From IMG/VR virus record IMGVR_UViG_3300042691_003004: DNA of 64,000 nt, one strand, 5' to 3'. This DNA is from an uncultured virus (IMG/VR IMGVR_UViG_3300042691_003004). Taxonomy: Duplodnaviria; Heunggongvirae; Uroviricota; Caudoviricetes. The notes under the pieces were generated by a model that was given only the letters and a program-made list of their open reading frames with translations, was not told where the DNA came from and made no database searches. A program made the position numbers and the translations under genes. The stretch's first letter is position 1, and every line of letters starts with the position of its first letter. This document shows positions 28,714 to 45,683 of the stretch, piece by piece.

Positions 28714-29031
28714 TTGATTGCCGACCGAGGATGCGCTGAACGGGGGTGCGCATGTTACGACCCCCGAATCGACAAGGATGGAGTTGAGATGACGGAAAAG
28801 ATGAAAGCCGATGAAGTGCAAGTGGGTGGCTCCCACTACAAGGACATGGACCCACAACCGTGGGAGGTCATGCAATCACTGCTGACCCCTGAAGAATTCC
28901 GGGGCTATCTCAAAGGCAACATGATCAAGTACGGCATGCGTCAGGGTAAGAAGGACAGCCCCGATGCCGGTAAGTACTACCACTACAAACAAAAACTAAA
29001 CGAGATCACGGGTGGTGAGACATGGATTTGA
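28714..29031 (+). CDS. DUF3310 family protein
   Basis: QVGGSHYK...GYLKGNMIKY.MRQGKK. Confidence 0.75.
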   Translation: MIADRGCAERGCACYDPRIDKDGVEMTEKMKADEVQVGGSHYKDMDPQPWEVMQSLLTPEEFRGYLKGNMIKYGMRQGKKDSPDAGKYYHYKQKLNEITGGETWI

Positions 29032-31316: not shown

Positions 31317-31735
31317 CACAACCAGAAGCATTGAGACTGGCTGATTGGCTTGACCATCATGGCGAAAAACTTAGTCACGCGGATGCCGCTGCCGAGCTAC
31401 GCCGGTTGTATCAAGTGAATTTAGACCTGCTGGGTGAACTGTATGTGCTTCGTGCATCGAAACATCTTAAAGATGTGACGGCGGCGTACAAGGCGCAGGA
31501 GCCGGTGGCGTGGATGAACCCATCATGGATCGACCCCGATACGCGAGGTTGGGCAAACGATAGTTTTGAATCAATACCGACTGAAGGATGGATTCCGCTC
31601 TACACCGCCCCACCACAGCGCCAATGGCAAGGGCTGACCAAAGAAGAAGCCAAAGAAATCTGTATGGCCAACCGTCCGTATGTCGTTGACATGGTGGCTG
31701 CGCTGGAGGCACGGCTCAAGGAGAAGAACACGTGA
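31313..31735 (+). CDS. Hypothetical protein (EPVAW...PLYTAPP mosaic type)
   Basis: Motifs typical of proteobacterial phage accessory ORFs. Confidence 0.6.
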   Translation: MTQPEALRLADWLDHHGEKLSHADAAAELRRLYQVNLDLLGELYVLRASKHLKDVTAAYKAQEPVAWMNPSWIDPDTRGWANDSFESIPTEGWIPLYTAPPQRQWQGLTKEEAKEICMANRPYVVDMVAALEARLKEKNT

Positions 31736-32403
31736 CAAAGATACCCGCATGGTCCTTCTCGTCCATCAAGACGTTCGATCAGTGCCCGAAGAAGTTCTAC
31801 CACCTAAAAGTTGCCAAAGACTACAAGGAGGATCAGAACGCTGAGCACCTGATGTACGGCAAACGCTTTCACAAAGCCGCTGAGGACTACATCAAGGACG
31901 ACACGCCACTGCCGCCAGAGTTCAATTACGCCAAGGCTGCACTGGACAAACTAAAGGTCATGCCGGGTGAGAAGCTATGCGAGTACGAGATGGGGTTGAC
32001 CGAGAACCTTGCACCGTGCGGATTCAAAGACTCCAACGTTTGGTGGCGTGGCATCGCAGACTTGATCATCTTACGGGATGACCTTGCGTTCGTGCTGGAC
32101 TACAAGACGGGTAAGAGCGCCAAGTACGCTGACAAGGGCCAGCTTGAGTTGATGGCGTTAGCTGTGTTCAAGCACTTCCCACAGGTCAAGCGCGTGAAAG
32201 CCGGGTTGCTGTTCGTGATTGCCAACGCGTTCCCCAAGGCCGAGTACACCATCGAGGACGAGCCGGGACTGTGGCAGAAGTGGTTGGCTGATCACGGCAA
32301 GATGAAAGCTGCCTATGAGACAAACGTATGGAACCCCCGCACGTCGGGGCTGTGTAAGAAGCACTGTGTTGTCTTATCATGCCCTCATAATGGAAGGAGT
32401 TAG
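31732..32403 (+). CDS. PD-(D/E)XK Cas4/RecB-like exonuclease
   Basis: SFSSIKTFDQCP, GIADL, DYKTGK, QL..MA; three C-terminal Cys (possible Fe-S). Confidence 0.85.
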   Translation: MTKIPAWSFSSIKTFDQCPKKFYHLKVAKDYKEDQNAEHLMYGKRFHKAAEDYIKDDTPLPPEFNYAKAALDKLKVMPGEKLCEYEMGLTENLAPCGFKDSNVWWRGIADLIILRDDLAFVLDYKTGKSAKYADKGQLELMALAVFKHFPQVKRVKAGLLFVIANAFPKAEYTIEDEPGLWQKWLADHGKMKAAYETNVWNPRTSGLCKKHCVVLSCPHNGRS

Positions 32404-32405
32404 TT

Positions 32406-32702
32406 ATGCCCTATACCAAATCACCACGCCCGTATAAGCACGAGTACGAGAAGCAGAAAGCTCGGGGTGAACATGCTGATCGTATGGAGCGCCAACGTGC
32501 ACGTCGCGCTATGGACAAAACCGGTGCCGACAAGAACGGTAACGGTAAGGCCGACAAGCGTGAAGGTAAGGACATCGACCACGTGAAGATGTTATCCAAA
32601 GGTGGGTCAAACAAGACCGGCCTGCGGCTGTTAAGCCCCGCGAAGAACCGTGCACGCAATGGTCACAGCGTGCGTGAACCGGGCGGGAAGAAACCCTCTT
32701 GA
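32406..32702 (+). CDS. HNH endonuclease-like protein
   Basis: DIDHVKMLSKGGSN...NRARN. Confidence 0.7.
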   Translation: MPYTKSPRPYKHEYEKQKARGEHADRMERQRARRAMDKTGADKNGNGKADKREGKDIDHVKMLSKGGSNKTGLRLLSPAKNRARNGHSVREPGGKKPS

Positions 32703-32735
32703 CCAACGCCGGGCGACCGGCTACATTAAAAATTC

Positions 32736-32784
32736 GATGGCAGCGAGCGTGAGTGGGACACCCACTTCACGCCGCTCTGTCATC
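32736..32784 (+). promoter_or_regulatory. Long imperfect hairpin in helicase leader
   Basis: GATGGCAG/CTGTCATC + GCGTGA/TCACGC + GTGGG/CCCAC stems. Confidence 0.55.
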
Positions 32785-32796
32785 TGCGGAGAACCG

Positions 32797-34335
32797 ATGG
32801 AAATCATTGACAACAAGGCTTTGCTGCTGAAGGTACGCAACCCGCAGCAGATTACGACCGTCATCCCCAAGAGCAAAGAACTGCCGGGGAACAAAGTTGT
32901 CGTGCACTGGGGCTTGGACGAGGCACAAGTTCTGCGCAACATGCGCATCAAGAACGTACCCTCCCCCATCATGGGCCGATACGACTGGCCCGGGCAACAC
33001 GCCCCTTTCGATCATCAACGCACCACGGCAGCGTTCTTGACCATGAACCGCCGTGCGTTCTGCCTCAACGAGCAGGGCACGGGTAAGACCGGCTCCGTCA
33101 TCTGGGCGGCTGACTATCTGATGAAGGCTGGCAAGGTCAAGCGCGTACTGGTGATCTGCCCGCTGTCCATCATGGACTCGGCGTGGCGTGCTGACTTGTT
33201 CAAGTTTGCCATGCACCGCAACGTCGACATTGCCTACGGTGCCAAAGACAAGCGCCGTGCTGTGATCAATGGCCCGGCTGAGTTTGTCATCATCAACTAC
33301 GACGGGGTTGAGATCGTGGCTGATGACATCGCACGGGGCGGCTTTGACCTGATCGTGGTGGACGAGGCGAATGCCTATAAGAATGCGCAGACCAAACGCT
33401 GGAAGATACTCAATTCCTTACTGAAAGCTGACACGTGGCTCTGGATGCTGACCGGCACCCCTGCCGCCCAGTCACCACTGGATGCCTACGGGTTGGCGAA
33501 GCTGGTCAACCCCAAGGGTGTACCTACGTACTTCACCTCGTTCAAAGACATGGTGATGTACAAGATATCGAACTACCGCTGGATACCCAAAGAAACCGCC
33601 ACCCAGACGGTGTTCAACGCACTGCAACCTGCCATCCGGTTTACCAAGGACGAGTGCCTTGACCTGCCCGAGATGACCTACGTCAAGCGCACGGTCGAGT
33701 TGACCAAGCAACAGCAGAAGTACTACGACCTGCTCAAGAAGCGCATGGTTATTCAAGCCGCAGGTGAGGAGATCACCTCAGTCAACGCTGCCGTGGCTAT
33801 GTCCAAGCTCCTGCAAATCTCTTGCGGTGCGGTGTACTCCGACACGGGCGAAACGCTGGAGTTCGATATCAGCAAACGGTACAACGTACTCAAAGAAGTT
33901 ATCGACGAGTCCAGTCAGAAGGTGCTGATCTTTGTACCGTATAAGCACGTGATCGGCATCCTGTCTCAGAAGCTAACCGAGGATGGGTACACCAACGCAG
34001 TGATCAGCGGGGATGTGCCAGCGGGTAAACGTGCTGACATCTTTCGTGACTTCCAAAACAACCCCGACCCCCGGGTGCTGGTGATCCAGCCCCAGTCTGC
34101 CGCCCATGGTGTGACCCTGACAGCGGCCAACACAGTGGTGTGGTGGGGGCCAACGGCCAGCCTTGAGACGTATGCACAAGCCAACGCCCGGGTACATCGC
34201 TCCGGGCAGCGCCATCCTTCAACAGTGGTGCAGCTTGTAGGGTCTGGTGTAGAAAGACACGTTTACAACTTACTAGATAACAAAATAGACGTACACGCAA
34301 AAATTGTCGATCTTTACAAAGAAATACTTGAATAA
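32797..34335 (+). CDS. SNF2-family (SF2) helicase
   Basis: EQGTGKT, VVDEA, LTGTP, QANARVHRSGQ; GGAGA RBS. Confidence 0.88.
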   Translation: MEIIDNKALLLKVRNPQQITTVIPKSKELPGNKVVVHWGLDEAQVLRNMRIKNVPSPIMGRYDWPGQHAPFDHQRTTAAFLTMNRRAFCLNEQGTGKTGSVIWAADYLMKAGKVKRVLVICPLSIMDSAWRADLFKFAMHRNVDIAYGAKDKRRAVINGPAEFVIINYDGVEIVADDIARGGFDLIVVDEANAYKNAQTKRWKILNSLLKADTWLWMLTGTPAAQSPLDAYGLAKLVNPKGVPTYFTSFKDMVMYKISNYRWIPKETATQTVFNALQPAIRFTKDECLDLPEMTYVKRTVELTKQQQKYYDLLKKRMVIQAAGEEITSVNAAVAMSKLLQISCGAVYSDTGETLEFDISKRYNVLKEVIDESSQKVLIFVPYKHVIGILSQKLTEDGYTNAVISGDVPAGKRADIFRDFQNNPDPRVLVIQPQSAAHGVTLTAANTVVWWGPTASLETYAQANARVHRSGQRHPSTVVQLVGSGVERHVYNLLDNKIDVHAKIVDLYKEILE

Positions 34336-34356
34336 AGGAGGAAACACCACTATACT
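34328..34356 (+). promoter_or_regulatory. Sigma70-type promoter for replication genes
   Basis: TTGAAT-17 bp-TATACT. Confidence 0.65.
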
Positions 34357-34385
34357 ATCTGTTCCACAACAACTGGAGAAACACG

Positions 34386-34793
34386 ATGACCGAAGAAACT
34401 AAAGACACCGTACCAGTCGAAAAGCTGGTCAAGGTGTATCTCAAGATGAACGCCAAGCTGAGCGAACTTAAAGCGGCTTTTGAGGCTGAGGAGAAGGCGC
34501 TCAAAGAGCAGATGACCAAGGTGAAGGGTGCATTACTGACGTACTGCAAGGAGCAAAACGTCGAGTCCGTGCGTACTGCTGAGGGGCTGTTCTACCGTGG
34601 TGTAACGACCCGCTATTGGACGAACGACTGGGAGTCCATGGGCAGGTTTATCGTCGAGAACAACGCCCCAGAACTGATGGAGAAGCGCCTTCACCAAGGC
34701 AACATGAAACAGTTTCTGGAAAACAACCCTGAACTCCTGCCCCCGGGTCTCAACGTGGACAGCGAGTACACCATCACTGTACGGAGAAAGTAA
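34386..34793 (+). CDS. Replication-module hypothetical protein
   Basis: GGAGA RBS; coiled coil then SVRT..G, LPPGLN. Confidence 0.7.
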   Translation: MTEETKDTVPVEKLVKVYLKMNAKLSELKAAFEAEEKALKEQMTKVKGALLTYCKEQNVESVRTAEGLFYRGVTTRYWTNDWESMGRFIVENNAPELMEKRLHQGNMKQFLENNPELLPPGLNVDSEYTITVRRK

Positions 34794-35065
34794 TGAGCGA
34801 ACCGTTTGTGCCGATTGAAGATTTGGCTAAGCACTTCACGGTCTCGGTATCGACAGTCCGTGCTTGGGTGCGTCAGGATTTGATACCCAAGGATACGTAC
34901 ATCAAGGTGGGTAACACCTACCGATTCAGCATATCCAAAGTTGTCGAAGCACTGACCACAGCACCCAAGGCAGAGCCGCCGACGACCGATACCTCGGCCC
35001 TAGAAGCCGAAAAAGCCCCAGTCCAACTCGAACTTGACTTCACCAACCCCGATAAAGACATCTAA
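34793..35065 (+). CDS. Excisionase-like HTH DNA-binding protein
   Basis: IEDLAKHFTVSVSTVRAWVRQDLIP...KVGNTYRF. Confidence 0.75.
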   Translation: MSEPFVPIEDLAKHFTVSVSTVRAWVRQDLIPKDTYIKVGNTYRFSISKVVEALTTAPKAEPPTTDTSALEAEKAPVQLELDFTNPDKDI

Positions 35066-35076
35066 GGAGAAACATC

Positions 35077-35994
35077 ATGTCAAACGAAATGACCCTGTTT
35101 GGTAACCAGTCCAGCTCTGCCCTTGCCCTGCTCAAAGGGCTTGACGACGACCTGACCAGCAAGATCGCTGGCTCCGGCGGCAGCAAACGTATCAGCCTTG
35201 AGAACAACGTGTTCACCGAAATCATCGGTGGCAAGGCTGTGCGTGTGTCTGAAGAACGCTCTATGCAGGTTGTGATCATCAACGCCGCTGCCGTGTCCCG
35301 CACCTACTACGCTGGCACGTACCAGAAGGGTGTGAAGTCCAAGCCGACCTGCTGGTCGAGCGACACCCAGACGCCGGACGCCTCGGTGCCCGAGGATCAA
35401 CGGCAAGCACGGTTCTGCAAAGACTGCCCTCAGAACATCAAAGGTTCTGCCGCCCAAGGCGATGGTCGCGCATGCCGCTACGCTCAGCGTGTGGCTGTGG
35501 CGTTAGCTAGCGACAACGGTGTGGATGACAACGTATATCAACTGAACCTGCCCGCCACCTCGGTGTTCGGTGATGCTGACGGTCAGAAGATGCCATTGCA
35601 AGCCTACGGGCGTTATCTCAAGGCGCACAACACGCACGTCATCAGTGTCGTGACCGAGATGCGCTTTGACCCCACAGCACAGATGAAGCTGGTGTTTAAG
35701 CCGATTCGTCCGCTGAGCGAGAACGAACTGCGTACTGTGTTGGCATTGCGTGATCATCCAGACACCATCAAGGCCATCACCATGACGGTGAGCCAGATGG
35801 ATCGTGATGAACCCGCTGCACCTGCACCGGCACCTGCACCTGCCGTGAAGAATGCGATCAAAGCCGAGCCGAAGGCTGAGAAAGCTGTTGTCGAGGAGGT
35901 AGCCGAGCCTACCAAGGTTGTGAAGAAATCAGTTGCCGCAGAAGTGACTGAGAAGGCTGACCTGTCTGACATCGTTGGTGAGTGGGACGACTGA
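35077..35994 (+). CDS. Putative ssDNA-binding protein
   Basis: Cys cluster CWS...CKDC...C; acidic tail EWDD; upstream of primase. Confidence 0.5.
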   Translation: MSNEMTLFGNQSSSALALLKGLDDDLTSKIAGSGGSKRISLENNVFTEIIGGKAVRVSEERSMQVVIINAAAVSRTYYAGTYQKGVKSKPTCWSSDTQTPDASVPEDQRQARFCKDCPQNIKGSAAQGDGRACRYAQRVAVALASDNGVDDNVYQLNLPATSVFGDADGQKMPLQAYGRYLKAHNTHVISVVTEMRFDPTAQMKLVFKPIRPLSENELRTVLALRDHPDTIKAITMTVSQMDRDEPAAPAPAPAPAVKNAIKAEPKAEKAVVEEVAEPTKVVKKSVAAEVTEKADLSDIVGEWDD

Positions 35995-36004
35995 TTTTCC
36001 AGTC

Positions 36005-36036
36005 AGGGATGGGGTCGCTCCCCATCCCTTCTTTTT
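36005..36036 (+). terminator. Terminator/attenuator between putative SSB and primase
   Basis: AGGGATGGGG stem pairing with CCCCATCCCT, followed by TCTTTTT. Confidence 0.7.
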
Positions 36037-36070
36037 CAGTTTTCCCTCTCAACACCAATGAACGGCAGCT

Positions 36071-38965
36071 ATGGACACAAGAACATTTCTGGAGGCGGTG
36101 CTGGGAGATGAGGGTACGTATTGTGTGTGGGCCAATCGGATTACCGATGGGCGCAAGGTACAGAAGTTCTACCCTACGATTGAGGCACTGATCCATGCGG
36201 CCAACAATTTAGATGAAGATGGGTACGACGCGTACTTTGCGCTAGGAACTTTTGACGAGGCTGGGTCTCGTGAAGGTAGCCACGTAAAGCAACTCAGGGC
36301 GTTCTTCCTCGACCTAGATTGTGGGCCAACAAAAGAGTACGCATCTCAGAGTGAGGCGCTGACTGCGCTTCGCTCGTTTTGTAAACAAGTAAAGTTACCC
36401 CGACCGACCCTGATCAACTCGGGACGAGGCGTCCATGTGTACTGGGCGCTGACTGCGCCTGTTTCACGTGAAACATGGCAACCTGTTGCCGAGCGCCTCA
36501 AGGCCCTGTGTAAACAGCACAAGCTCTATGCTGACCCCGTAGTGACGGCTGACGCCGCCCGAGTGCTGCGAGTACCCGGTACCCACAATCATAAGGACAC
36601 ACCCCCTACGGAGGTGATCGTCGTTGGGGAGGCAGCAAAGCCGGTCGACTGCACTGCCTTCTCAGAGTTGCTGGGCGACGTAGCAGTTGTCGAAGATATC
36701 TTTAAGGGCGCTCGCAATAAGTTCGTACCGCGAGAGAACGACGCCCTGATGCAGGCGTTGTCCGGCAGTTTTGTCAGCCGCTTTAAGACCATCATGCTCA
36801 AGACGGTGGCGGGCAAAGGCTGTGCACAACTGGCTGAGGTTGTGCAGAACCAAGAAAACATATCAGAACCATTGTGGCGTGCCGGGCTGTCGATTGCGAA
36901 GTTCTGTGTTGATGGTGGCACCGCCATACACCGTATCTCAAACAAGCATCCACAGTACACCGAGAACGCGACCGAAGAAAAAGCGGCTCGTATTCAGGGG
37001 CCGTACTTATGCGAACGGTTCGATGAATACCGTGCTGGGGTGTGTCCGACGTGTCCGCACTGGGGCAAGATCAAATCACCGATCAGTCTTGGGCGTGAGA
37101 TTGAAGAAGCAAGTGAGGACGATAACGTCGTCATACAAAAGCCGCTCGGCGTAACTGATGCGGTGCCAATCAAATACGTAATACCAAAATACCCAGCGCC
37201 ATTCTTTCGTGGCAAATCGGGCGGGGTGTTCAGGCGCGGTAAGCAGGTGTTCAAAGAAAACGGTGAGGTCGACGAAGAAGCGTCCAAGGACAAGCTGGTT
37301 TACTTCAACGACCTGTATGTGGTGCGCAGACTCAAAGACCCGGAGATGGGCGAGTCGCTGGTGATGCGGTTGCATCTACCAAAAGATGGCGTCAGGGAAT
37401 TCACGCTCCCACTGACCGCCGTAGGTTCGAAGGATGAGTTCCGTAAGTACCTTGCTATGCAGGGGGTTGCGGTGCTTGGCGTAGCTGAATTGATGGAGTA
37501 CACGATGCAGTGGGTAAACAACTTACAGTTAACGACCGAAGCTGAAGAAGCTCGGCGACAATTTGGATGGGTCGATGAAAAGTACGAGTCCTTCGCGCTG
37601 GGCAACATGCTCGTGTACAAGGACAGGGTTGAGGTCAACGCACCGTCCGGTGCCACAGTCGGCCTGTTCCCATACTTCCAGCCCAAGGGCACGCTTGCTG
37701 GGTGGAAAGAAACCATGAAGTTCTATGACCGCCCGGGTATGGAGCCACATCAGTTCATGGTGGGCTTAGCTTTCGGTGCCGTGCTCATGGAGTTCCAGCC
37801 GATCAACGCCGCAGCGTTCCACATGTACTCAAAGGAGTCGGGTCTTGGTAAGACCACCGGCATGCTGGCAGGAGCGTCTGTCTGGGGTGACCCCGATCTG
37901 CTGATGATGCAAGAGCGGGACACAATCAATTCGAAGATGAACCGCGCCGAGGTGTACAAGAACGTCGTCTGCTACATGGACGAGTTGACCAACACCAAAC
38001 CACAGGACTTGTCGGACTGGGCGTATCAACTTCCTAGCGGACTTCAACGCAACCGCATGGGGCCTAAGAACAACGTTGAGCGCGTGCGCGGTAAGCCATG
38101 GAAAACCTTATTCGGCACCACGGGCAACACGTCAATGCTGGAGCGTATCGCGCTGTACAAAGCACTCCCAAAAGCAGAAGCGCAGCGTATCTTGGAGCAC
38201 CGAGTTGAGCGCCTGAACTTTGCCAGTAAGTCTGAGACCGATGCGTTTGCTACCGCCATCAAAGAGAACTATGGGGTAGCCGGGGTACCGTACTTACAGT
38301 ACCTACTCAATGACCTTGAAGGCGCGAAGAAGTTAGCCAACGCTGTGCAAGGGAAGATCGACCTGCAAGCCAACCTTACTGCTGAGAACCGATTCTGGTC
38401 TGTCTTGGTATCTCGCCCCATCGCTGGGCTCATGCTGGCTCGGAGAGCAGGGCTTCTGGACTGGAAGATCGAGCCTATCGTTAAGTGGGCCATCCATACC
38501 ATGCAGGTTGCGCAGAGTATGGTGCGGGAGATGAACGCTGATGTGGAAGCGATTCTCACCGACTACTTGGCCGAGCACTACAACAGCATGCTCCGTATCA
38601 AGTCAACAGATGACAGCCGTAAAGGTAACACCGGGCTCGACCATTTAATTCAGCCGGACGCGATTCCCCGAGGTAACTCGTTTATTGCACGGTACGAGTA
38701 CGACGTGAAGAAGTTGTACCTGTTACCGAAACCACTGAAAGAGTGGTGCGGCAAGCAGCAGATCAACTACTCAGGGTTCATTGAGGGGCTGAAAGCTGGG
38801 CGCACCAAAGCCACCCGCACAAAGATACGGCTGTCCAAAGGTACACAAATGAACTTACCGCCGACTGACGTGTTTGTACTGGATTGCACCGAGTTCATGG
38901 ACGATGAAGCTGAGCAAGCTATGGCAACAACCTCCGCGCTTTTTCAAGCACAGAGTTCGGATTGA
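36071..38965 (+). CDS. Primase-helicase (AEP/RepB-like primase + DUF927-like ATPase)
   Basis: FLDLD, SGRGVHVYW, RVLRVPGT; Cys cluster; ESGLGKT, YMDE. Confidence 0.8.
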   Translation: MDTRTFLEAVLGDEGTYCVWANRITDGRKVQKFYPTIEALIHAANNLDEDGYDAYFALGTFDEAGSREGSHVKQLRAFFLDLDCGPTKEYASQSEALTALRSFCKQVKLPRPTLINSGRGVHVYWALTAPVSRETWQPVAERLKALCKQHKLYADPVVTADAARVLRVPGTHNHKDTPPTEVIVVGEAAKPVDCTAFSELLGDVAVVEDIFKGARNKFVPRENDALMQALSGSFVSRFKTIMLKTVAGKGCAQLAEVVQNQENISEPLWRAGLSIAKFCVDGGTAIHRISNKHPQYTENATEEKAARIQGPYLCERFDEYRAGVCPTCPHWGKIKSPISLGREIEEASEDDNVVIQKPLGVTDAVPIKYVIPKYPAPFFRGKSGGVFRRGKQVFKENGEVDEEASKDKLVYFNDLYVVRRLKDPEMGESLVMRLHLPKDGVREFTLPLTAVGSKDEFRKYLAMQGVAVLGVAELMEYTMQWVNNLQLTTEAEEARRQFGWVDEKYESFALGNMLVYKDRVEVNAPSGATVGLFPYFQPKGTLAGWKETMKFYDRPGMEPHQFMVGLAFGAVLMEFQPINAAAFHMYSKESGLGKTTGMLAGASVWGDPDLLMMQERDTINSKMNRAEVYKNVVCYMDELTNTKPQDLSDWAYQLPSGLQRNRMGPKNNVERVRGKPWKTLFGTTGNTSMLERIALYKALPKAEAQRILEHRVERLNFASKSETDAFATAIKENYGVAGVPYLQYLLNDLEGAKKLANAVQGKIDLQANLTAENRFWSVLVSRPIAGLMLARRAGLLDWKIEPIVKWAIHTMQVAQSMVREMNADVEAILTDYLAEHYNSMLRIKSTDDSRKGNTGLDHLIQPDAIPRGNSFIARYEYDVKKLYLLPKPLKEWCGKQQINYSGFIEGLKAGRTKATRTKIRLSKGTQMNLPPTDVFVLDCTEFMDDEAEQAMATTSALFQAQSSD
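36460..36475. promoter_or_regulatory. parS: Perfect parS consensus TGTTTCACGTGAAACA within primase ORF
   Basis: Exact match to canonical 16-bp chromosomal parS; function is inference. Confidence 0.6.
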
Positions 38966-39167
38966 CGACCTTGCCCCGGATGGGGTGCTCATCCGGGTAG
39001 CGTGGGATAAGTTTGTACCCGGGGCGTCAGTGTTCGTCCCGTGCATTAACACGCTTGAATGCGTGCGGCAGTTCTACGATATAGCCCGGCACAAGGACTG
39101 GACGATAGACACCCGCATCGGTATAGAGGGCGGGCGATGGGGGGTTCGCTTTTGGAGGGTGCTGTGA
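38904..39167 (+). CDS. Small hypothetical protein overlapping primase end (start uncertain)
   Basis: WDKFVPGASVFVPC...GVRFWRV. Confidence 0.5.
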   Translation: MKLSKLWQQPPRFFKHRVRIDDLAPDGVLIRVAWDKFVPGASVFVPCINTLECVRQFYDIARHKDWTIDTRIGIEGGRWGVRFWRVL

Positions 39168-39178
39168 TAGGATTTCCG

Positions 39179-39246
39179 TGACGGTGCAGTTGCCGTCATC
39201 GTGTTTCTCCTTCAGACAGCCCCCGGGTTCGCTCGGGGGCTTTTTT
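39179..39246 (+). ncRNA. Candidate trans-acting anti-RBS small RNA
   Basis: Extended -10 TGaTAGGAT (39165-39173), 5' hairpin, linker complementary to phage RBSs, terminator. Confidence 0.6.
39219..39246 (+). terminator. Intrinsic terminator where the two arms converge
   Basis: GCCCCCGGG-TTCG-CTCGGGGGC + T6. Confidence 0.85.
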
Positions 39247-42200
39247 CAATCTTCGTCATCATCGTCAAAGATTGACACGTTGCGGTCGTACTCGGCGGCG
39301 TTAGCCATCAACTCCGCACGTATCACCTTATTTAGGGTGATGCCGTGGTACATCTCGCTTGTGGTACGCATGTGCTGCTTCATAGAACGCACGATGGTAT
39401 CTGCGGTAACCAAGCCCGGGTGTTTGCGCCCAAGCTCCATAAGTTCTTCCATGTACTCCTGTGCCCCGCTGCTGTCGCCAAGCCGGGTGGATATGTAAAA
39501 CTTACGTAGCAGATCGGTGCGCTTCTCAAGCGTACGACGCTCAATGTTCTTGAGCGCGGCGTTCTCCTCCAACTGCCGGGTGTACTCGGCGGGGGCAAAA
39601 CCAAACGCTTGAGCCAATGAGTGACCGGCACCGATCTCACCGACAATCGGGTCACCGCGCAGTGTGTTTGCGCCTTCCGTTGCAAACCGCCCTGCCTTCA
39701 TCAAGTTACCAAACGCAGCCGGTGCCACTTGTTCTAGGCCGCGCTGAGTTTCGCCATCCATGATCATCTTGGCACCACGAGCCACACGATCTGCCACGCC
39801 ATACACGGGGCCACCCACGAGTTGCAGGAAGCTCAGAACAGCGCTGTCTTGGTCGCGGTACCCGGTGCTGTGGAACAGCAGGTCGGACAAACCGATACGG
39901 TTGGCAATAGCAGTGCCGGTCAGGAAGTTCAACGCGCCGTTGAACATGCCCTCACCCAAGTACTTGCGAGTGGCGGTCTCGGCGTCGTCCTCATCATCGT
40001 CTTTGAGGAACAGGTTGTAGAGCGCGGCGGCTACGCCGAACATCGGCACCCCTTGCGCCCCAGCAAGTATCGCGGACGACATGTACACCCCAGCGATTTG
40101 CCGTTTGGCGGCTTTGCGAATCTCTGGGTCCTCCGACACCATGGCGTCGCGGGTGGTCTTAAACAACATGTAATACATCGATACGCCGTATCGCTTGTAC
40201 ATGAACACCATCTTGCCGATTGAGTTCTTAGCCAGCAGAGGTGCACTGTTGGCAGACGCACCGCCGTTTAGCAACTCGGTTGCGTTGATGGCTTCTTGCG
40301 CCGCTTGGGTACGTTGCTCAGGTGTGAGTTCTTTACCTTTGTTCTCTTTGCGCAGACGGTCAAGCTCTAGTCTGTACGCCGCAATCATCGACACTTGGCG
40401 GTTCATACGCTCGCCGTGGTGGAAGATAAACCCAGACCACGCATTGACTTTGGCGAGCGGGCCATCTGCCGCACCTGTGTCGAGGATGTCGCTGGTCAAA
40501 GAGCGGCTAAGCAAGCCGTACTGACTGGACAGGTCGGACAGTTCACGCAGATCAAGGATAGCTTTCTCACCAGCGGTCAGAGTTTTCTTCTTAGCCAGCG
40601 CGTCGAAGTCGTAGTTGTCGAGCGAGTACCCGGCTTTCAGCTCCACGGGGTCACCCCCACCCGTGGTCTTGGCTTTGCGTTTGAGCCCTGAGCCAAAGAA
40701 CAACCGCGTAGCCGCACCGAGTGCTGCGTTAGTTTCACCGTAGCCATACTTCGCCCCGAGGTATGGCATGACGACCATGGGCAACTGAGTCAAGTTGACC
40801 AGTGCGGACGAGACGTTGAAACCCAGCGTCCAGCCAAACGCGGTTGATGTCGCCGCCTTTGCAAGCGGTGAGATGTTTGGCGCGACCATGGACTTGATGT
40901 GCCCGTCCATGACATCAAACAACATCCGCGCTTCTTCGGATTTGTTTTTGACCTTGACGTGTTCTTCCATCTCATCACGCAGCTTGTACATCTTGTTGCC
41001 ATACTCAAGGTTGGCTAACTGATGCGCCATGCTGATGGACTTGGAGTAAAACACTTTTGACGCGTTGGTCTCGGCACCGAGCGTACCAAGACGTGCACGG
41101 AATGACTGTGCGAACGAGGACTCAGGCAGCGTGTCGAGGAACACACGCATGATCTCGTCAGTCACCGTGGGGTCGACACTGTTAGCGTCGAGCACCTTGA
41201 GAATACTGTTGACGAACGATGTCGGCGGGGCGTCCTTGTAGTTACGCTTGGCTGTCGGTGCGGACTTCTGAACTGACTTGGCGTCCACGTTTGCATCGGC
41301 TTTGAGTTCACGTATGGCGCGATCTCGTTCAACCGACGTTTCGAACGCCATCTTGTAATACTCCAAGTTGCCGTTAGGCCCCTTAGCGTTAAACGTGACC
41401 CAGTAGTCACCCTGACGCATCAGCGGGAAGTACGGTTCGACCTTACCTTTGACCGCAAGGCGTTGATAGATTTCTTGCCGTAGCTTCTTTGCATCCGCAG
41501 GGTCTTTGACCGAGGCATCGATACGACTAAACAGCAGTTCCAGCAGCTTCTCATGTGATTCAGCGTATGAGTCGCGCATCTGCTCGTAAACGGCCTGCCC
41601 CTCCGGCCCCAGCGCCTTCCAGTCAACTTGTAGCTTGTCCCAAACTACCTGCTTATCCTCGTTGCCTTTGGTCTGCTTACCCTTGTAGCTGTCGCGCTTC
41701 TTGCTGGGGTCTACCTCAGCTATCGTAGACGCCATGATCAATCTATTCAGCGCGGCTTCTTTCTGGGGGTTACCGTCAGCCCACTTCCGAATCTTGTTGT
41801 ACGTTGCGTCTACCGCACGGCGGCGTACATCGATGGCACCGTTCCACAGCTTTTCCAACGTGTCCAACTGTTTGGCCATCGGGATTTGCTCAACCGCCAC
41901 ATCCGTCAGAGCGTTGAGTGGGAGGCTGCGTAGGATTATGTCTTTGGTGGCGGTAGGAATCTTCTGACGTAACACTTCGTAGATACGGCCAACAAACTGA
42001 TTGTTGACCATAGGCATGCCGACGATCTTGTCGTCCAGTGCACGGAATACGTCTGCCGACGCACCCAGTAACGACGCACGGTACATCGACCCCACCGGTA
42101 CACCGGTCGGAGAGATGATGGACATGATGGCAACATCTGCCGAATCCAGCGCAGACCCGATGCCCTTGGTAGGCAGGCCCACCAGCGTGCGTACGAAGTT

Positions 42201-45200
42201 ACCCACGGCGCTGAAGAACCGAGTCAGCGCGTTGATCGACTCACCCTTCGGGTTGATCTGCGCGAGCTTCTGTTGAAACTCAGGGTTGCTGAACACCTCA
42301 GAGACAAACTCGTCGAGGGAGGTGGCACCATACATGGTGTCGAGCGAACCTTTGACGTTGTTAAACAACTCAGTCAATTGCTTGGTAGCCGGGTGCCCTT
42401 TGTTACCCAGAATCTTGGCAACCGCAGCATGCGTAGCTTCATGCAGCAGCGCATGTGCATTCATGCCGGTTTCAGAGTTCAGCTTGATGGTGTTCGTGGC
42501 AGCATCATAGGAGCCAGCCAGCGAGCGACCCGACGGCGACTTGAGGTCGTCGACGATTTCAACTTTTACCCCACCCAACACCTTAGCCAATGCACGAGCT
42601 ATCTTGGCGTTGCGACTTGTTAACTTACCGCCGAACGTGTTGAGAGCCTGTACGAGGTTGCCTGCTTTCAGGTCAGCGAGCACCTGTGGATGCAATGGCA
42701 TGAACGTACGCACCATGTCGGAGGTAAGTTCTAGGTCCTCATCCATCTGCTTCTGTGTCTCACGATCCAGAAGCTGCCGAGCGGCAAACCAATCGGTGCC
42801 ACGACGCGTCTCAACCTCACCTTTAGTGAAGTACGAGTACATGTGCTTCATCAGCGTTGCGCGATCAGCACTGGATAGCGACTCGTAAAACGACTTAGCG
42901 TACTTCCCGCCACTTGCCGGGTTGATCGACGTAGTGCCTTCACGCCCAAACGCTACCTCGGGCATCTTCCCATCGCGTAGCTGTGCAGTGATGTCAGCGA
43001 GCGTGCCAGTCTTTGTGAGAAGTTTGAACTTCTCAAACATGGCAATGTACATGTCGTAACCCAACGACTGAAGCGCCATGTCTCGATCAGCTACGGCGAA
43101 CTGACCGTAGTATCCAAAGTTGCCCTTAGCTTCGGTCTTGGGCTCAGTCTTTGCCTCGGTCTTGGGCTCAGTCTTTGCCTCGGTCTTGGGCTCAGCCTTC
43201 GTTTCTTGTTCTGCTCGGCGAGCGGCAATCCTTTGCCTAAACCCGGAAAGTTTTGCAGTAATTTCGTTTAGTGCGGCTTCCGTCTTGGGTAGCCCAAGTT
43301 TGGGCGCAGCCTCTGCCTCAGTCTTTGCCTCGGTCTTGGGCTCAGTCTTGGGCTCAGTCTTGGGCGGCTCTTTCTTTAATGCACGTTGCTCCACGCCTTT
43401 TCGTGCGCCAGTGTCGCGTACAGACTGCCCACGATCTCCCAGTCCAGCGGGCTTAGGTGCTTCAGTTCGCTCGGTATCAGCAGCGCGTGTAGTTGGCTTT
43501 CTGGGTTGTGCGCTCGGTTCACCACCTTTAGCGCCAACTCCAGTTGTTCCACCGTCAACTCCTGTGTCCTTACCACGTCCTCCTGCTGGCTCATTTGGCT
43601 TCTCCTGCGCAGGCTTTTTACCGCCTTTGGCTTTGGGTGGGAACAGTTCCTGCTGCTTAGCCATACCACCAAAGGCTTGCATAGCGATGCGCTCGATAGC
43701 ATCTTTGGTGGCAGGTTTGATGTTGGGGTTAGTACGCACCCGCCCAAACACTTCACGCATAGTAGGCCAGTTGGCCTCGTTCGTCATGTCTACGTTGAGC
43801 AGTTGTTTATAGAACCCCGACTGCTTCGGTAAGCCGGTTTTGTCCAACACCTCAGCCGTGAGCGTAGTGGTGAACGGCTTCTCATCTCGCTCAGCTTGCC
43901 CGGCTAACTCCTCCTCAGAGAATGCCTGCGGGGCCTTGCCCTTGGGCTTACCCATGCCCGGGAACCCAATTTGCTCAGGCTCACGAGTAGTTTTCTTCTC
44001 AGGGATCAGCGCCTCCATCTCGGCGTTCTCAGCCGGTGCAGACGGTTCGATGCCGGTATCAGGCTCAGCCTTGGGTTTGATTGCAAAGTAGCGGTCGATC
44101 AGCGCATTGATCTTGGCGCGACGAGTTTCAGCCTCAATGACTTTAGTTTCTGCCTCGGTCGGCTTTGTGTCGGTATAACCTTCGCGCTCCAACCGTTTCA
44201 CAAACGCGGCTTGCAGGTTGGGCACCTCTGATTTAACCAGCGGTTCCAGCAACGCCATACGAGCGGTTGCGGTGCGAGACTTCTGCGCTTGTTCGACACG
44301 CTTATCAGTTTCCGCGATAGCTTTATCGCGCTGCGTAATCAGGTCACGCAACTCAGCGTCTGACACCATCTTCTCGATGTCAGCCGTTTCCAGCTCATCA
44401 ATCATGTCCCGTGTAAGTTCATCACGGGTGGTTGACGGTTTTTCAACATTGGGCGCAGTGACTTCTTCTTGCGCAACACCTTGAATACGCCCACGGCCCG
44501 GCACCTCAACGGTACCGTCAGCCCGCTCAAACCCCGGCAGTTCGAGCTGCCCTTTCTCCGGCTCTTGTGCAAACGTCTCAGCCAGTGCGGCTGCTTTACC
44601 CCTACGTGCAAGGTCGCGCTGCCCTTCAGTCAGGCCAGCCAGCGGATCAGACGTGCGTTGGTCTTCTGCACGTTGCCGTGCCGTGCGTTCCTTGGACTTG
44701 ATGTATTCGTCGTACTCGGCCTTGGTCGTGATGACCGACCCATCCGGTAGCGCCACTGGCGTGAACGGCTCCTTGGTATACCCCAGAAGTTGTTGCTCTG
44801 GGGTCTTGGCCTCAGGCGTAGCAGCGGGTGCTTCTGGCTTTTCACCAAACTTAGCAGCGCGTGCTTTGCGGCCCAGCGTGAGGTCAAGAATGACACTAGC
44901 CATTGCACCGACACCGGCACCGTACGCGCCTTCTTCACCCGATCCGGCCAACACTTCTTGGCTGGGGTCGTACACACCTTTGGCAATGAGGTTCTGTGCA
45001 ATCTTTTGAGCAGCTTCGGTAGCGCCCTCGATCCCACCACGAGCCAGCGCGGTAGTGATGATGCTTTTCATTGGCCCGATGTTCGGGGCCAGAATATCCA
45101 GCAAGCCGGTTGGTGCACCCAACAGGGTAGCGGTGCGACGCTCCTCGGCAGACGCGCCTTTAGACTCGGCAGCTTCACGGGCTTCACCGGCACCAGCAGC

Positions 45201-45683
45201 AACACCAAGACCACCAGCGGCTACACGCCCAGCGACTCCCGCAGGGCCCATCAAGAAGAACGGTATCGTTGAGCCCAGACCTTCACCAAGCCTGCGCCCA
45301 ACTGATTCTTCATATCCACGCCCAGCTTCAAACGGCTTCTTGGCTACGCCTGCGATCTCTTTGATCTTTTCACGCGCAGCCTTTTCCGTCTCGTCGGGAA
45401 GCATGGCTGCGATACCAGTTCCTGCGGTCTCAGCAAGACCGATGGCACCGGGGGCAAGCCCTTTGAAAAACTCTTTGACGTTACCGCCAACCGTGGTCTC
45501 AGGCTCGGGCTCAGGACGCGGAGCCATGCGTGCTTCACGCTGGCGACGCTCTAACTCCCGCAAGCGCTCCTGCGCGGATGACCCACGCATGGACTCCGCA
45601 ATCTGCGCTAACCGCTGCGCTGCTTGGACATCTCCTGCTGCATCTGCGTTACGCAGCGCGGTTAGCACTTCTTGGAGAGTCAT
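39246..45683 (-). CDS. Giant internal virion/ejection protein with zincin-like motif
   Basis: 2145 aa; LLHEATH + DEFVSEVFSNPEF; last gene of late arm. Confidence 0.7.
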   Translation of the reverse strand: MTLQEVLTALRNADAAGDVQAAQRLAQIAESMRGSSAQERLRELERRQREARMAPRPEPEPETTVGGNVKEFFKGLAPGAIGLAETAGTGIAAMLPDETEKAAREKIKEIAGVAKKPFEAGRGYEESVGRRLGEGLGSTIPFFLMGPAGVAGRVAAGGLGVAAGAGEAREAAESKGASAEERRTATLLGAPTGLLDILAPNIGPMKSIITTALARGGIEGATEAAQKIAQNLIAKGVYDPSQEVLAGSGEEGAYGAGVGAMASVILDLTLGRKARAAKFGEKPEAPAATPEAKTPEQQLLGYTKEPFTPVALPDGSVITTKAEYDEYIKSKERTARQRAEDQRTSDPLAGLTEGQRDLARRGKAAALAETFAQEPEKGQLELPGFERADGTVEVPGRGRIQGVAQEEVTAPNVEKPSTTRDELTRDMIDELETADIEKMVSDAELRDLITQRDKAIAETDKRVEQAQKSRTATARMALLEPLVKSEVPNLQAAFVKRLEREGYTDTKPTEAETKVIEAETRRAKINALIDRYFAIKPKAEPDTGIEPSAPAENAEMEALIPEKKTTREPEQIGFPGMGKPKGKAPQAFSEEELAGQAERDEKPFTTTLTAEVLDKTGLPKQSGFYKQLLNVDMTNEANWPTMREVFGRVRTNPNIKPATKDAIERIAMQAFGGMAKQQELFPPKAKGGKKPAQEKPNEPAGGRGKDTGVDGGTTGVGAKGGEPSAQPRKPTTRAADTERTEAPKPAGLGDRGQSVRDTGARKGVEQRALKKEPPKTEPKTEPKTEAKTEAEAAPKLGLPKTEAALNEITAKLSGFRQRIAARRAEQETKAEPKTEAKTEPKTEAKTEPKTEAKGNFGYYGQFAVADRDMALQSLGYDMYIAMFEKFKLLTKTGTLADITAQLRDGKMPEVAFGREGTTSINPASGGKYAKSFYESLSSADRATLMKHMYSYFTKGEVETRRGTDWFAARQLLDRETQKQMDEDLELTSDMVRTFMPLHPQVLADLKAGNLVQALNTFGGKLTSRNAKIARALAKVLGGVKVEIVDDLKSPSGRSLAGSYDAATNTIKLNSETGMNAHALLHEATHAAVAKILGNKGHPATKQLTELFNNVKGSLDTMYGATSLDEFVSEVFSNPEFQQKLAQINPKGESINALTRFFSAVGNFVRTLVGLPTKGIGSALDSADVAIMSIISPTGVPVGSMYRASLLGASADVFRALDDKIVGMPMVNNQFVGRIYEVLRQKIPTATKDIILRSLPLNALTDVAVEQIPMAKQLDTLEKLWNGAIDVRRRAVDATYNKIRKWADGNPQKEAALNRLIMASTIAEVDPSKKRDSYKGKQTKGNEDKQVVWDKLQVDWKALGPEGQAVYEQMRDSYAESHEKLLELLFSRIDASVKDPADAKKLRQEIYQRLAVKGKVEPYFPLMRQGDYWVTFNAKGPNGNLEYYKMAFETSVERDRAIRELKADANVDAKSVQKSAPTAKRNYKDAPPTSFVNSILKVLDANSVDPTVTDEIMRVFLDTLPESSFAQSFRARLGTLGAETNASKVFYSKSISMAHQLANLEYGNKMYKLRDEMEEHVKVKNKSEEARMLFDVMDGHIKSMVAPNISPLAKAATSTAFGWTLGFNVSSALVNLTQLPMVVMPYLGAKYGYGETNAALGAATRLFFGSGLKRKAKTTGGGDPVELKAGYSLDNYDFDALAKKKTLTAGEKAILDLRELSDLSSQYGLLSRSLTSDILDTGAADGPLAKVNAWSGFIFHHGERMNRQVSMIAAYRLELDRLRKENKGKELTPEQRTQAAQEAINATELLNGGASANSAPLLAKNSIGKMVFMYKRYGVSMYYMLFKTTRDAMVSEDPEIRKAAKRQIAGVYMSSAILAGAQGVPMFGVAAALYNLFLKDDDEDDAETATRKYLGEGMFNGALNFLTGTAIANRIGLSDLLFHSTGYRDQDSAVLSFLQLVGGPVYGVADRVARGAKMIMDGETQRGLEQVAPAAFGNLMKAGRFATEGANTLRGDPIVGEIGAGHSLAQAFGFAPAEYTRQLEENAALKNIERRTLEKRTDLLRKFYISTRLGDSSGAQEYMEELMELGRKHPGLVTADTIVRSMKQHMRTTSEMYHGITLNKVIRAELMANAAEYDRNVSIFDDDDED
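43130..43365. repeat. EPKT/EAKT tandem repeats (12-bp units), two blocks
   Basis: GGTCTTGGGCTC/AGTCTTTGCCTC units. Confidence 0.85.

What the first reader, a model, noticed from the sequence alone, without database searches (positions are those of the whole stretch)
39145..39246. Candidate phage trans-acting sRNA antisense to the RBSs of several replication genes
Seen: after the replication arm there is a promoter-like element (TTCGCT-17-TAGGAT with extended -10 TG), a 5' hairpin (GTGACGGTG-CAGT-TGCCGTCAT), a linker and a terminator, giving ~68 nt. Bases 39195-39210 (GTCATCGTGTTTCTCC) are the exact reverse complement of 34375-34390 (GGAGAAACACGATGAC), the SD and start codon of gene 34386, ~4.8 kb away. 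Bases 39202-39212 pair 11/11 with the SD of the putative SSB gene (35064-35074), extending through a G-U pair and the AUG. Bases 39188-39196 pair 9/9 (one G-U) with 36062-36070, directly before the primase ATG. The helicase RBS (GGAGAACCGATG, ~32788-32799) pairs in two blocks. Inference: one sRNA represses or times translation of the replication module, acting as a copy-number or early-to-late switch.
Basis: partly seen in the sequence, partly recalled or inferred. Interest (0 to 1): 0.88.

Follow-up and report, generated by a model that had tools for sequence, protein, structure and literature searches.

The report
Phage small RNA pairing with two ribosome sites
An uncultivated phage family carries a conserved, roughly 67-base RNA gene whose exposed stretch has co-evolved with the ribosome-binding sites of two upstream genes, which suggests that it controls how much of those two proteins is made.

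Summary
Bases 39195-39210 are the exact reverse complement of 34375-34390, the SD and start codon of gene 34386 (g1).

Comparative evidence backs an RNA element. All 37 relatives found by the neighbouring 87-aa protein alone carry the same layout after a TGA stop: a TAnnAT hexamer, a 5' hairpin starting 6-7 nt later, a CUCC seed and a terminator. All 5 pairs of the main hairpin helix show compensatory changes.

The seed tracks lineage-specific variants of the g1 ribosome site. In 36 distinct genome pairs the cognate longest pairing run averages 11.1 nt against 8.5 when permuted (0 of 5000). The same holds more weakly for gene 35077, g3 (1 of 5000). It does not hold for the primase, helicase, g2, g5 or internal control regions.

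So the claim of several replication genes shrinks to two. g1, g2 and g3 form their own unit, with a conserved sigma-70-type promoter and a conserved terminator.

Best reading: a trans-acting, probably repressing sRNA. No expression data could be obtained. It matches no Rfam family and has no cultured relative. I rate it a new variant of a known kind.

The parts
39145..39150 (+). -35-like hexamer of the proposed sRNA promoter. It is weak (3 of 6) and lies inside the 87-aa gene.
   Evidence: Sequence. Not called by the promoter scan. Its conservation is confounded by the coding sequence.
39165..39173 (+). TGA stop of the 87-aa gene followed by the TAGGAT hexamer, together forming an extended -10-like element (TGnTAnnAT).
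   Evidence: TGA in 37 of 37 distinct elements, against 39 of 77 genes in the window. Hexamer TAnnAT in 35 of 37, TACTTT in 2.
39180..39197 (+). 5' hairpin (HP1) at the predicted transcript start. Its 3' arm is antisense to the g1 start codon and codon 2.
   Evidence: MFE fold, z = -3.39. The hairpin starts at nt 16-17 after the stop in 28 of 29 distinct sequences. All 5 pairs of the main helix show changes on both sides, 86% of cells paired.
39195..39212 (+). Seed: a C/U-rich anti-SD stretch. 39195-39210 is antisense to the g1 ribosome site and 39202-39212 to the g3 SD region.
   Evidence: Unpaired in the MFE from 39198 on. Co-variation with the targets.
39218..39246 (+). Intrinsic terminator: a 10-pair stem and a T-run on the + strand only.
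   Evidence: Conserved in relatives, with both-side changes in 5 of 9 pairs.
34328..34356 (+). Sigma-70-type promoter of the g1-g2-g3 unit (TTGAAT, 17 nt, TATACT), overlapping the helicase stop codon.
   Evidence: Promoter scan. Present in 21 of the 23 distinct upstream regions printed, absent in L104 and L111. Coordinates.
34375..34390 (+). Target 1: SD, spacer, start codon and 2 nt of gene g1 (34386-34793, 135 aa, function unknown).
   Evidence: Exact 16-nt complement. Rank 1 of 77 ribosome sites by duplex energy and by cofold ddG. Cognate excess, 0 of 5000 permutations.
35064..35074 (+). Target 2 (weaker): SD region of gene g3 (35077-35994, 305 aa, acidic C-terminal tail).
   Evidence: 11-nt complement. 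Rank 8 by duplex energy and rank 4 by cofold. Cognate excess, 1 of 5000 permutations.
36005..36035 (+). Terminator-like hairpin after g3, which closes the g1-g2-g3 unit.
   Evidence: A G/C-rich hairpin with a T-rich tail follows the g3 stop in most relatives printed.
38904..39167 (+). 87-aa gene (g5), whose stop codon supplies the TG of the -10-like element.
   Evidence: 37 relatives, 31 of them matched over residues 1-87. No Pfam or PHROG family.
39246..45683 (-). Convergent 2145-aa gene (LPD39 / DarB-like polyvalent protein) that ends at the terminator.

Best explanation
The stretch 39165-39246 encodes a small RNA of about 67 nt on the + strand, at the end of the replication arm.

Inferred from conservation: transcription starts near 39180 from an extended -10-type promoter whose TG is the stop codon of the preceding gene. 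Transcription ends at the intrinsic terminator 39218-39246. The same RNA end could also arise by processing of read-through mRNA.

The RNA has a 5' hairpin, an exposed C/U-rich seed and a terminator hairpin.

Shown by sequence and co-variation: the seed, together with the 3' arm of the 5' hairpin, is complementary to the SD, spacer, start codon and first codons of g1 (34375-34390). It is complementary more weakly to the SD region of g3 (35064-35074). g1 and g3 are the first and last genes of a short unit that has its own promoter and terminator.

Inferred mechanism: pairing nucleates on the SD and then opens the 5' hairpin, whose 5' arm resembles the target. This occludes the ribosome-binding site and lowers translation of g1 and g3. 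The RNA would thus act as a post-transcriptional brake inside the replication module.
For: 1. Conserved layout.
- All 37 loci retrieved by the 87-aa protein alone, with no RNA pattern imposed, show TGA + TAnn(A/T)T, a hairpin and a CUCC motif. 36 also show the complete terminator; L008 ends at its contig end.
- Covariance model R1 finds exactly one hit per locus in 48 of 92 sources, and one in the 64-kb window.

2. RNA structure.
- All 5 pairs of the main hairpin helix change on both sides. The covariation score is 0.263 against 0.126 when shuffled (0 of 500) and at most 0.124 when slid.
- The hairpin starts 6-7 nt after the hexamer in 28 of 29 distinct sequences.

3. Target pairing in the window.
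- The 16-nt exact complement exceeds 300 of 300 shuffles.
- g1 ranks 1 of 77 heuristic ribosome sites by duplex energy (-29.3; mean -16.2, sd 4.3). It also ranks 1 by cofold ddG (-25.9; mean -8.8, sd 4.5).

4. Co-variation.
- Spacer, SD-flank and early-codon variants are mirrored in the seed in many lineages.
- In an ungapped register, 232 cells pair against 198.9 +/- 8.9 when shuffled (0 of 2000).
- Across 36 distinct pairs the cognate longest run averages 11.14 against 8.48 +/- 0.26 when permuted (0 of 5000). Runs of 12 or more occur in 11 of 36 cognate pairs against 4.7% of non-cognate cells.
- For g3 the figures are 9.85 against 8.81 +/- 0.26 (1 of 5000).

5. Negative controls with the same genomes show no excess: primase 1917, g5 2273, g2 4229, two internal regions 3805 and 3992 (all of 5000), and helicase 723 of 5000.

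6. The longest exact complement in the whole locus falls on the g1 RBS in 10 of 27 distinct genomes and on the g3 RBS in 6 of 27.
Against: - No expression evidence of any kind.
- The promoter fails the consensus scan. Its -35 lies in coding sequence.
- In the L009-L011 type the hairpin overlaps the -10 hexamer, so a transcript from that promoter would lack the 5' hairpin.
- In 9 of 36 pairs the cognate run is 9 nt or less, which is SD level only. L104, L111 and L112 show no extended match to g1.
- A plain sliding duplex scan of the whole window does not single out the site: -30.1, about 20th among the non-overlapping sites printed, from 12,790 windows scored.
- Isolated mismatches are not enriched for G-U-compatible ones: 6, against 7 incompatible transitions and 28 transversions. 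That test gives no extra support for RNA-level selection.
- The permutation tests ignore phylogeny. Only the negative controls address that.
- The direction of the effect (repression) is inferred from the position of the pairing, not shown.
Confidence: 0.62

Rival explanations
1. The element acts in cis, not as a separate RNA. It would be the 3' UTR of a long read-through mRNA from the g1 promoter, folding back onto its own 5' ribosome-binding site. That long-range 5'-3' pairing, as in icaR, would shut off g1 once the transcript is complete.
For: The element lies downstream on the same strand as g1, 4.8 kb away, with the same gene order in all 27 genomes examined. The complementarity and co-variation fit cis pairing as well as trans pairing. 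A 3'-UTR anti-SD motif that pairs with the SD of the same mRNA is described for icaR (PMC3868564, search listing and start of abstract only).
Against: A terminator-like hairpin with a T-rich tail follows g3 in the window and in most relatives printed, so most transcripts from the g1 promoter should end 3.1 kb before the element. The invariant TGA + TAnnAT at a fixed distance from the hairpin has no role in this model.
Confidence: 0.12
2. The RNA is made only by endonucleolytic processing of the primase/g5 mRNA 3' end (the OppZ/CarZ route), not from its own promoter. The conserved A/U-rich motif after the stop codon would be the cleavage site.
For: Its position at the 3' end of an mRNA, sharing that mRNA's terminator. 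OppZ and CarZ are made this way and pair with their own transcripts (PMC7398697, abstract). The weak -35 and the failure of the promoter scan. The L009 type, where the hairpin covers the hexamer.
Against: The pattern of conservation is that of a -10 element. T, A, A and T are fixed, or nearly so, while the two middle bases vary freely, and TG sits one base upstream in 37 of 37.
Confidence: 0.15
3. The signal lies on the other strand or in the DNA. The minus strand would carry a copy of the g1 ribosome site serving a small ORF (39199..39074, 41 aa), or acting as a decoy site. Alternatively the two copies are an inverted DNA repeat kept alike by recombination or by a shared binding protein.
For: Read on the minus strand, the window has SD, spacer and ATG identical to those of g1, and a 41-aa ORF. 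The mismatch spectrum shows no preference for G-U, as expected if sequence identity rather than pairing were selected.
Against: The minus-strand start codon is not conserved: it is absent or altered in the L006 type, L042, L076 and the whole L013-L025 group. The ORF runs antisense through the conserved 87-aa gene. The T-run of the terminator and the TAnnAT are + strand features. Hairpin and terminator pairs include G-U pairs on the + strand. Repeats of 16-20 nt are very short for recombinational homogenisation (general knowledge).
Confidence: 0.06
4. It is an ordinary 3' UTR with a terminator. The complementarity is chance plus the generic likeness of any CUCC-containing stretch to strong SD sequences.
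For: One 16-nt inverted repeat somewhere in 64 kb is about what chance gives (my estimate, roughly 0.5 expected pairs). Several unrelated genes with strong SDs also score well: 2718, 26407 and 21060. The 9-11 nt matches are within the shuffle range.
Against: Chance in one genome cannot give matched lineage-specific variants in dozens of genomes. The control ribosome sites show none. The linker next to the seed diverges freely.
Confidence: 0.05

Closest known systems
OppZ and CarZ, autoregulatory 3'-UTR-derived sRNAs of Vibrio cholerae (PMC7398697; abstract and outline read)
   Same: A small RNA at the 3' end of an mRNA that shares its terminator. It base-pairs with a ribosome site upstream in the same gene cluster and inhibits translation.
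   Different: OppZ and CarZ are cut out by RNase E and have no promoter of their own. Here a -10-like element is conserved. Here the targets lie in a unit that appears to have its own terminator, so strict self-regulation of one operon is not established. The host factors are unknown, and the carrier is a phage.
icaR mRNA 5'/3'-UTR pairing in Staphylococcus aureus (PMC3868564; search listing and start of abstract only)
   Same: A C/U-rich anti-SD motif in a 3' UTR that pairs with an SD and controls translation.
   Different: icaR acts within or between copies of a single mRNA. Here the complementary sites are 4.8 kb apart with a terminator between them, and a discrete small RNA is predicted.
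Phage antisense RNAs that block an RBS: c4 of P1/P7, sar of P22, OOP of lambda (review PMC12197685, passages read)
   Same: A phage-encoded RNA of about 70 nt that controls a phage gene by pairing around its ribosome-binding site.
   Different: sar and OOP are encoded opposite their targets. c4 controls the antirepressor and immunity. Here the RNA is encoded 4.8 kb from its targets, at the end of the replication arm of a phage family with no sign of lysogeny genes among the genes examined. In that review the words 'autoregul' and 'feedback' do not occur.
Rfam RF00519 suhB/MmgR (alphaproteobacterial sRNA)
   Same: A partial sequence match over a C/U-rich motif and the terminator (alignment).
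   Different: 23.3 bits against a gathering score of 41. The family's hairpin is not matched (non-standard pairs are marked). Not a member.
3'-UTR sRNAs with their own promoter inside the upstream gene, such as DapZ and MicL (recalled, not checked here), and plasmid copy-number antisense RNAs such as CopA and RNA I (recalled)
   Same: A promoter inside or at the end of the upstream coding sequence, a shared terminator, and a dosage-linked brake on replication functions.
   Different: These are bacterial or plasmid systems. The plasmid RNAs are encoded opposite their targets.

Membership tests
Rfam RF00519 (suhB/MmgR) | Score at or above the family's gathering threshold (41 bits) | tested here: not met
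   23.3 bits, with E 0.068 on 2.5 kb and 0.0054 on 201 nt. No other Rfam family comes closer.
Trans-acting base-pairing sRNA | A discrete transcript with defined 5' and 3' ends | not testable with these tools
   The 3' end is predicted by the intrinsic terminator. The 5' end is inferred from the conserved -10-like element and the hairpin position. No RNA data were available.
Trans-acting base-pairing sRNA | Conserved secondary structure supported by compensatory changes | tested here: met
   5 of 5 main-helix hairpin pairs and 5 of 9 terminator pairs change on both sides. Covariation score 0.263 against 0.126 shuffled (0 of 500). Caveat: the alignment was fitted to the model.
Trans-acting base-pairing sRNA | A seed complementary to a target encoded elsewhere, kept through evolution | tested here: met
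   g1: 0 of 5000 permutations. g3: 1 of 5000. Controls show no excess.
Trans-acting base-pairing sRNA | A regulatory effect on the target | not testable with these tools
   Needs a reporter assay or infection data.
Autoregulatory 3'-UTR-derived sRNA (OppZ/CarZ kind) | The sRNA and its target are parts of one transcript | tested here: inconclusive
   Same strand and conserved gene order, but a conserved terminator-like hairpin separates g3 from the primase. Read-through is unknown.
Autoregulatory 3'-UTR-derived sRNA (OppZ/CarZ kind) | Release by RNase E processing | not testable with these tools
   No RNA end data.
Cis-encoded antisense RNA (OOP/sar kind) | Encoded on the strand opposite its target, overlapping it | tested here: not met
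   The targets lie at 34375-34390 and 35064-35074 on the same strand, 4.1-4.8 kb away.
Intrinsic (Rho-independent) terminator | A G+C-rich stem-loop followed by a T-run | tested here: met
   10 pairs, 8 of them G-C, 4-nt loop, T-run on the + strand. Conserved in relatives.
Sigma-70 extended -10 promoter | TGn upstream of a TAnnnT-type hexamer, at the right distance from the transcript start | tested here: inconclusive
   The motif is invariant or nearly so, and the hairpin begins 6-7 nt after it. The consensus scan does not call it, and no start site is mapped.

The most novel reading that the evidence does not exclude
The RNA and its two ribosome sites form a co-evolving lock-and-key set that works as a natural toehold switch. 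The exposed CUCC seed docks on the SD. The 5' hairpin, whose 5' arm imitates the target's start region, is then displaced so that the start codon is covered.

If the RNA is made from a constitutive promoter on every genome copy, it would act as a gene-dosage sensor. It would cap synthesis of g1 and g3 as genomes accumulate. g1 has a weak, sub-threshold Mu Gam-like lead. g3 has SSB-like features that were not tested.

That would be a lytic-phage counterpart of plasmid copy-number antisense control, but acting in trans over 4.8 kb. The many lineage-specific variants would be ready-made orthogonal regulator/RBS pairs.
Probability: 0.2. Interest if true: 0.8.

Novelty: new variant of a known kind. 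Interest (0 to 1): 0.66.

Why it matters
Very few phage small RNAs are known to regulate phage genes, and most of those are antisense RNAs of temperate model phages. This is a candidate trans-acting regulator of replication-module genes in a large family known only from metagenomes.

Size and standing of the family:
- No relative was found among 50,697 cultured-phage records.

The case also shows that an sRNA-target pair can be identified from metagenomic contigs alone, by intermolecular co-variation with internal negative controls.

The natural variants give a direct experimental design: swap cognate and non-cognate RNA/RBS pairs. They could also serve as orthogonal riboregulator parts.

Tried and rejected
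- Rfam, 4227 families: nothing at gathering score. The best was RF00519 at 23.3 bits against 41.
- Cultured phages (INPHARED): no blastn match of 38000-40500 and no tblastn match of g1 or the 87-aa protein.
- No whole genome is held for the window.
- RNA runs: no RNA holder was listed.
- MAFFT plus RNAalifold on A1 recovered only the terminator, because MAFFT misaligned the variable hairpin. I replaced this with a covariance-model alignment.
- A sliding RNAduplex scan of the whole window was not discriminating.
- The G-U asymmetry test was inconclusive.
- Minus-strand 41-aa ORF: rejected, because its start codon is not conserved.
- Primase and helicase as targets: rejected.
- Function of g1:
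  - Pfam gave only sub-threshold hits: Phage_Mu_Gam 18.0 bits against 28.3, and DUF7307 17.1 against 27.
  - The PHROG family is named 'minor head protein', which is doubtful in a replication arm.
  - The PDB sequence search gave a best E of 0.28.
  - The AlphaFold model has pLDDT 85.8.
  - Foldseek against PDB and the VIA wide search matched only the long helix.
- g3 as an SSB: only an acidic C-terminal tail, a Cys cluster and an Atlas lead to Pam3_Gp34 on 10% of one cluster's members. Not tested further.
- Host: two MAG contigs, labelled Actinomycetota and Rhodobacteraceae, carry relatives. They are probably binned phage contigs and I do not take them as host evidence.
- A per-column tally of intermolecular pair types was dropped.

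Full report
**Setting.** The window is phage-like. A + strand arm (about 18.0-39.2 kb) carries replication genes:
- family-A DNA polymerase 29022-30848
- PD-(D/E)XK nuclease 31732-32403
- SNF2-type helicase 32650-34335
- DUF927 primase 36071-38965

A - strand arm starts with a 2145-aa LPD39/DarB-like protein (45683..39246) and includes a virion structural protein. No cultured relative was found, and no whole genome is held. The finding lies in the 78-nt gap between the convergent ends of the two arms.

**Observation.** By length alone only the 16-nt complement to 34375-34390 is unusual. It exceeds the longest match of 300 of 300 shuffles, whose maxima were 9-14. The 11-nt match (35064-35074) and the 9-nt match (36062-36070) are within the chance range. 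The consensus scan does not call the proposed promoter.

**Conservation of the element.**
- I searched IMG/VR with the 87-aa protein encoded just upstream (38904-39167). This gave 37 loci at 44-82% protein identity.
- No RNA pattern was imposed, yet all 37 show the same order after the stop codon: TGA, then TAnn(A/T)T, a hairpin of variable sequence, a conserved C/U-rich motif containing CUCC, a variable linker, a G/C-rich terminator with a T-run, and then the end of the convergent gene. L008 is cut by its contig end before the T-run; the other 36 loci give 28 distinct sequences.
- Folded one by one from the start predicted 7 nt after the hexamer, 28 of 29 distinct sequences place the hairpin at nt +1/+2. 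The exception is the L009-L011 type, where the hairpin overlaps the hexamer.
- A covariance model built from these (R1) finds exactly one hit per locus in 48 of 92 sources, and a single hit in the window at 39165-39246 (50.6 bits). Many of the other loci end before the site.
- On the model-fitted alignment, all 5 pairs of the main hairpin helix show changes on both sides, with 86% of cells paired. The covariation score is 0.263, against 0.126 when shuffled (0 of 500) and at most 0.124 when slid.
- The stop codon is TGA in 37 of 37 distinct elements, against 39 of 77 genes in the window. The hexamer is TAnnAT in 35 of 37.
- The window RNA folds as hairpin, 20 unpaired nt, then terminator (z = -3.39).

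**The target.** Gene 34386 (g1, 135 aa) has at least 584 relatives in IMG/VR.
- On contigs that hold both g1 and the element, the seed mirrors the local version of the g1 ribosome site: the bases flanking the SD, the spacer (which is otherwise free to vary), the start codon and the first codons.
- Examples of perfect or near-perfect duplexes: 16 nt in the window, 19 nt in L045, and 20 nt with one G-U in L042.
- Other lineages have their own spacer or SD-flank variants present on both sides: L044/L033, L052, L061, L068, L076, L080 and L117.
- The same holds for L003, L027, L031, L034 and L026, after I fetched their g1 genes. It also holds for the two distant MAG contigs L118 and L119.
- The 3' arm of the hairpin is antisense to the start codon and codon 2. 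The 5' arm therefore resembles the target.

*Statistics for g1:*
- In an ungapped register, 232 cells pair against 198.9 +/- 8.9 when seeds are shuffled among 25 distinct pairs (0 of 2000).
- Across 36 distinct pairs the cognate longest run averages 11.14 nt, against 8.48 +/- 0.26 permuted (0 of 5000).
- Runs of 12 or more occur in 11 of 36 cognate pairs, and runs of 10 or more in 27 of 36. The non-cognate figures are 4.7% and 27.1%.

*In the window:* g1 ranks first of 77 heuristically called ribosome sites by duplex energy and by cofold ddG.

**Other proposed targets.**
- g3 (35077) shows a smaller but specific cognate excess: 9.85 against 8.81 +/- 0.26 (1 of 5000).
- The same test gives nothing for the primase (1917 of 5000), g5 (2273), g2 (4229), two internal coding regions (3805 and 3992) or the helicase 5' region (723 of 5000, 19 genomes).
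- These controls also show that shared ancestry alone does not produce the signal.
- The 'several replication genes' therefore reduce to two.

**Transcription units.**
- A canonical promoter, TTGAAT-17-TATACT at 34328-34356, overlaps the helicase stop codon. It is present in 21 of the 23 distinct upstream regions printed.
- It is missing in L104 and L111, which are also among the genomes without extended complementarity to g1.
- A terminator-like hairpin follows g3 at 36005-36029. A G/C-rich hairpin with a T-rich tail follows the g3 stop in most relatives printed.
- So g1-g2-g3 looks like a unit of its own, and the RNA targets its first and last cistrons.
- The RNA gene lies 3.1 kb further on, after the primase and g5. 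This weakens both a strict 'own-operon' feedback reading and a cis 5'-3' pairing reading.

**Results against my reading.**
- There is no expression evidence.
- The promoter rests on conservation only.
- The L009 type does not fit the 5'-hairpin rule.
- 9 of 36 pairs show SD-level complementarity only.
- A whole-window duplex scan does not single out the site.
- Isolated mismatches show no preference for G-U-compatible changes: 6, against 7 incompatible transitions and 28 transversions.
- The longest exact complement in the whole locus falls on the g1 RBS in only 10 of 27 genomes and on the g3 RBS in 6 of 27.

**Mechanism.**
- Shown: a conserved structured element, and a seed that co-evolves with two ribosome sites.
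- Inferred: it is transcribed from about 39180 to 39246; it pairs with the SD through the start codon; it blocks ribosome loading.
- Open: whether it has its own promoter or is processed; which host factors it needs; its timing role; and what g1 and g3 do. For g1 there are only sub-threshold Mu Gam-like and DUF7307 hits and an uninformative fold search. For g3 there is an acidic tail and a Cys cluster.

**Comparison with known systems.** The closest known kinds are:
- 3'-end-derived sRNAs that regulate their own cluster, OppZ/CarZ (PMC7398697, abstract).
- 3'-UTR anti-SD pairing in icaR (PMC3868564, listing).
- Phage RBS-blocking antisense RNAs, c4, sar and OOP (PMC12197685, passages).

It is not a member of any Rfam family. 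My literature searches listed no description of such an element in a phage replication module. They cover open-access text only.

**Verdict.** This is a real, conserved RNA element and very probably a base-pairing regulator of g1 and g3. It is a new variant of a known kind, found in an uncultivated phage family.

Noticed in passing
window 36005-36035 (+): Terminator-like hairpin between g3 and the primase gene. A G/C-rich hairpin with a T-rich tail follows the g3 stop in most relatives printed. It implies that the primase is expressed by read-through or from an unrecognised promoter.
   Followed up: partly
window 34328-34356 (+): Canonical sigma-70-type promoter for g1, whose -35 overlaps the helicase stop codon. 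This is the same 'promoter over a stop codon' design as proposed for the small RNA.
   Followed up: partly
L013-L025 group and others: Many relatives have a small second hairpin in which the CUCC seed pairs with a downstream GGAG/AGGA. The seed is then partly masked. The window itself lacks this hairpin.
   Followed up: partly
L044, about 676-692 nt after its g1 start: This relative has extra genes inserted between g2 and g3. The first inserted gene has a ribosome site almost identical to that of g1 and is complementary to the local seed.
   Followed up: no
window 26407 and 21060 (+): The ribosome sites of these two + arm genes rank 2nd and 3rd by cofold ddG with the RNA (-21.8 and -20.1). They could not be checked in relatives because the loci do not reach that far.
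   Followed up: no
window 35077-35994 (+): The g3 protein has a Cys cluster, a long Pro/Ala/Lys-rich linker and an acidic C-terminal tip. This recalls phage single-strand DNA-binding proteins (recalled), but no family matched.
   Followed up: partly
window 39246-45683 (-) and 49517-55606 (-): Two giant genes of 2145 and 2029 aa. The first has an LPD39 domain and a DarB-like region. The second matches almost nothing.
   Followed up: no
L118, L119: The only matches in 185,579 species genomes are two MAG contigs from one estuary, binned to Actinomycetota and Rhodobacteraceae. They are probably phage contigs carried into the bins.
   Followed up: partly
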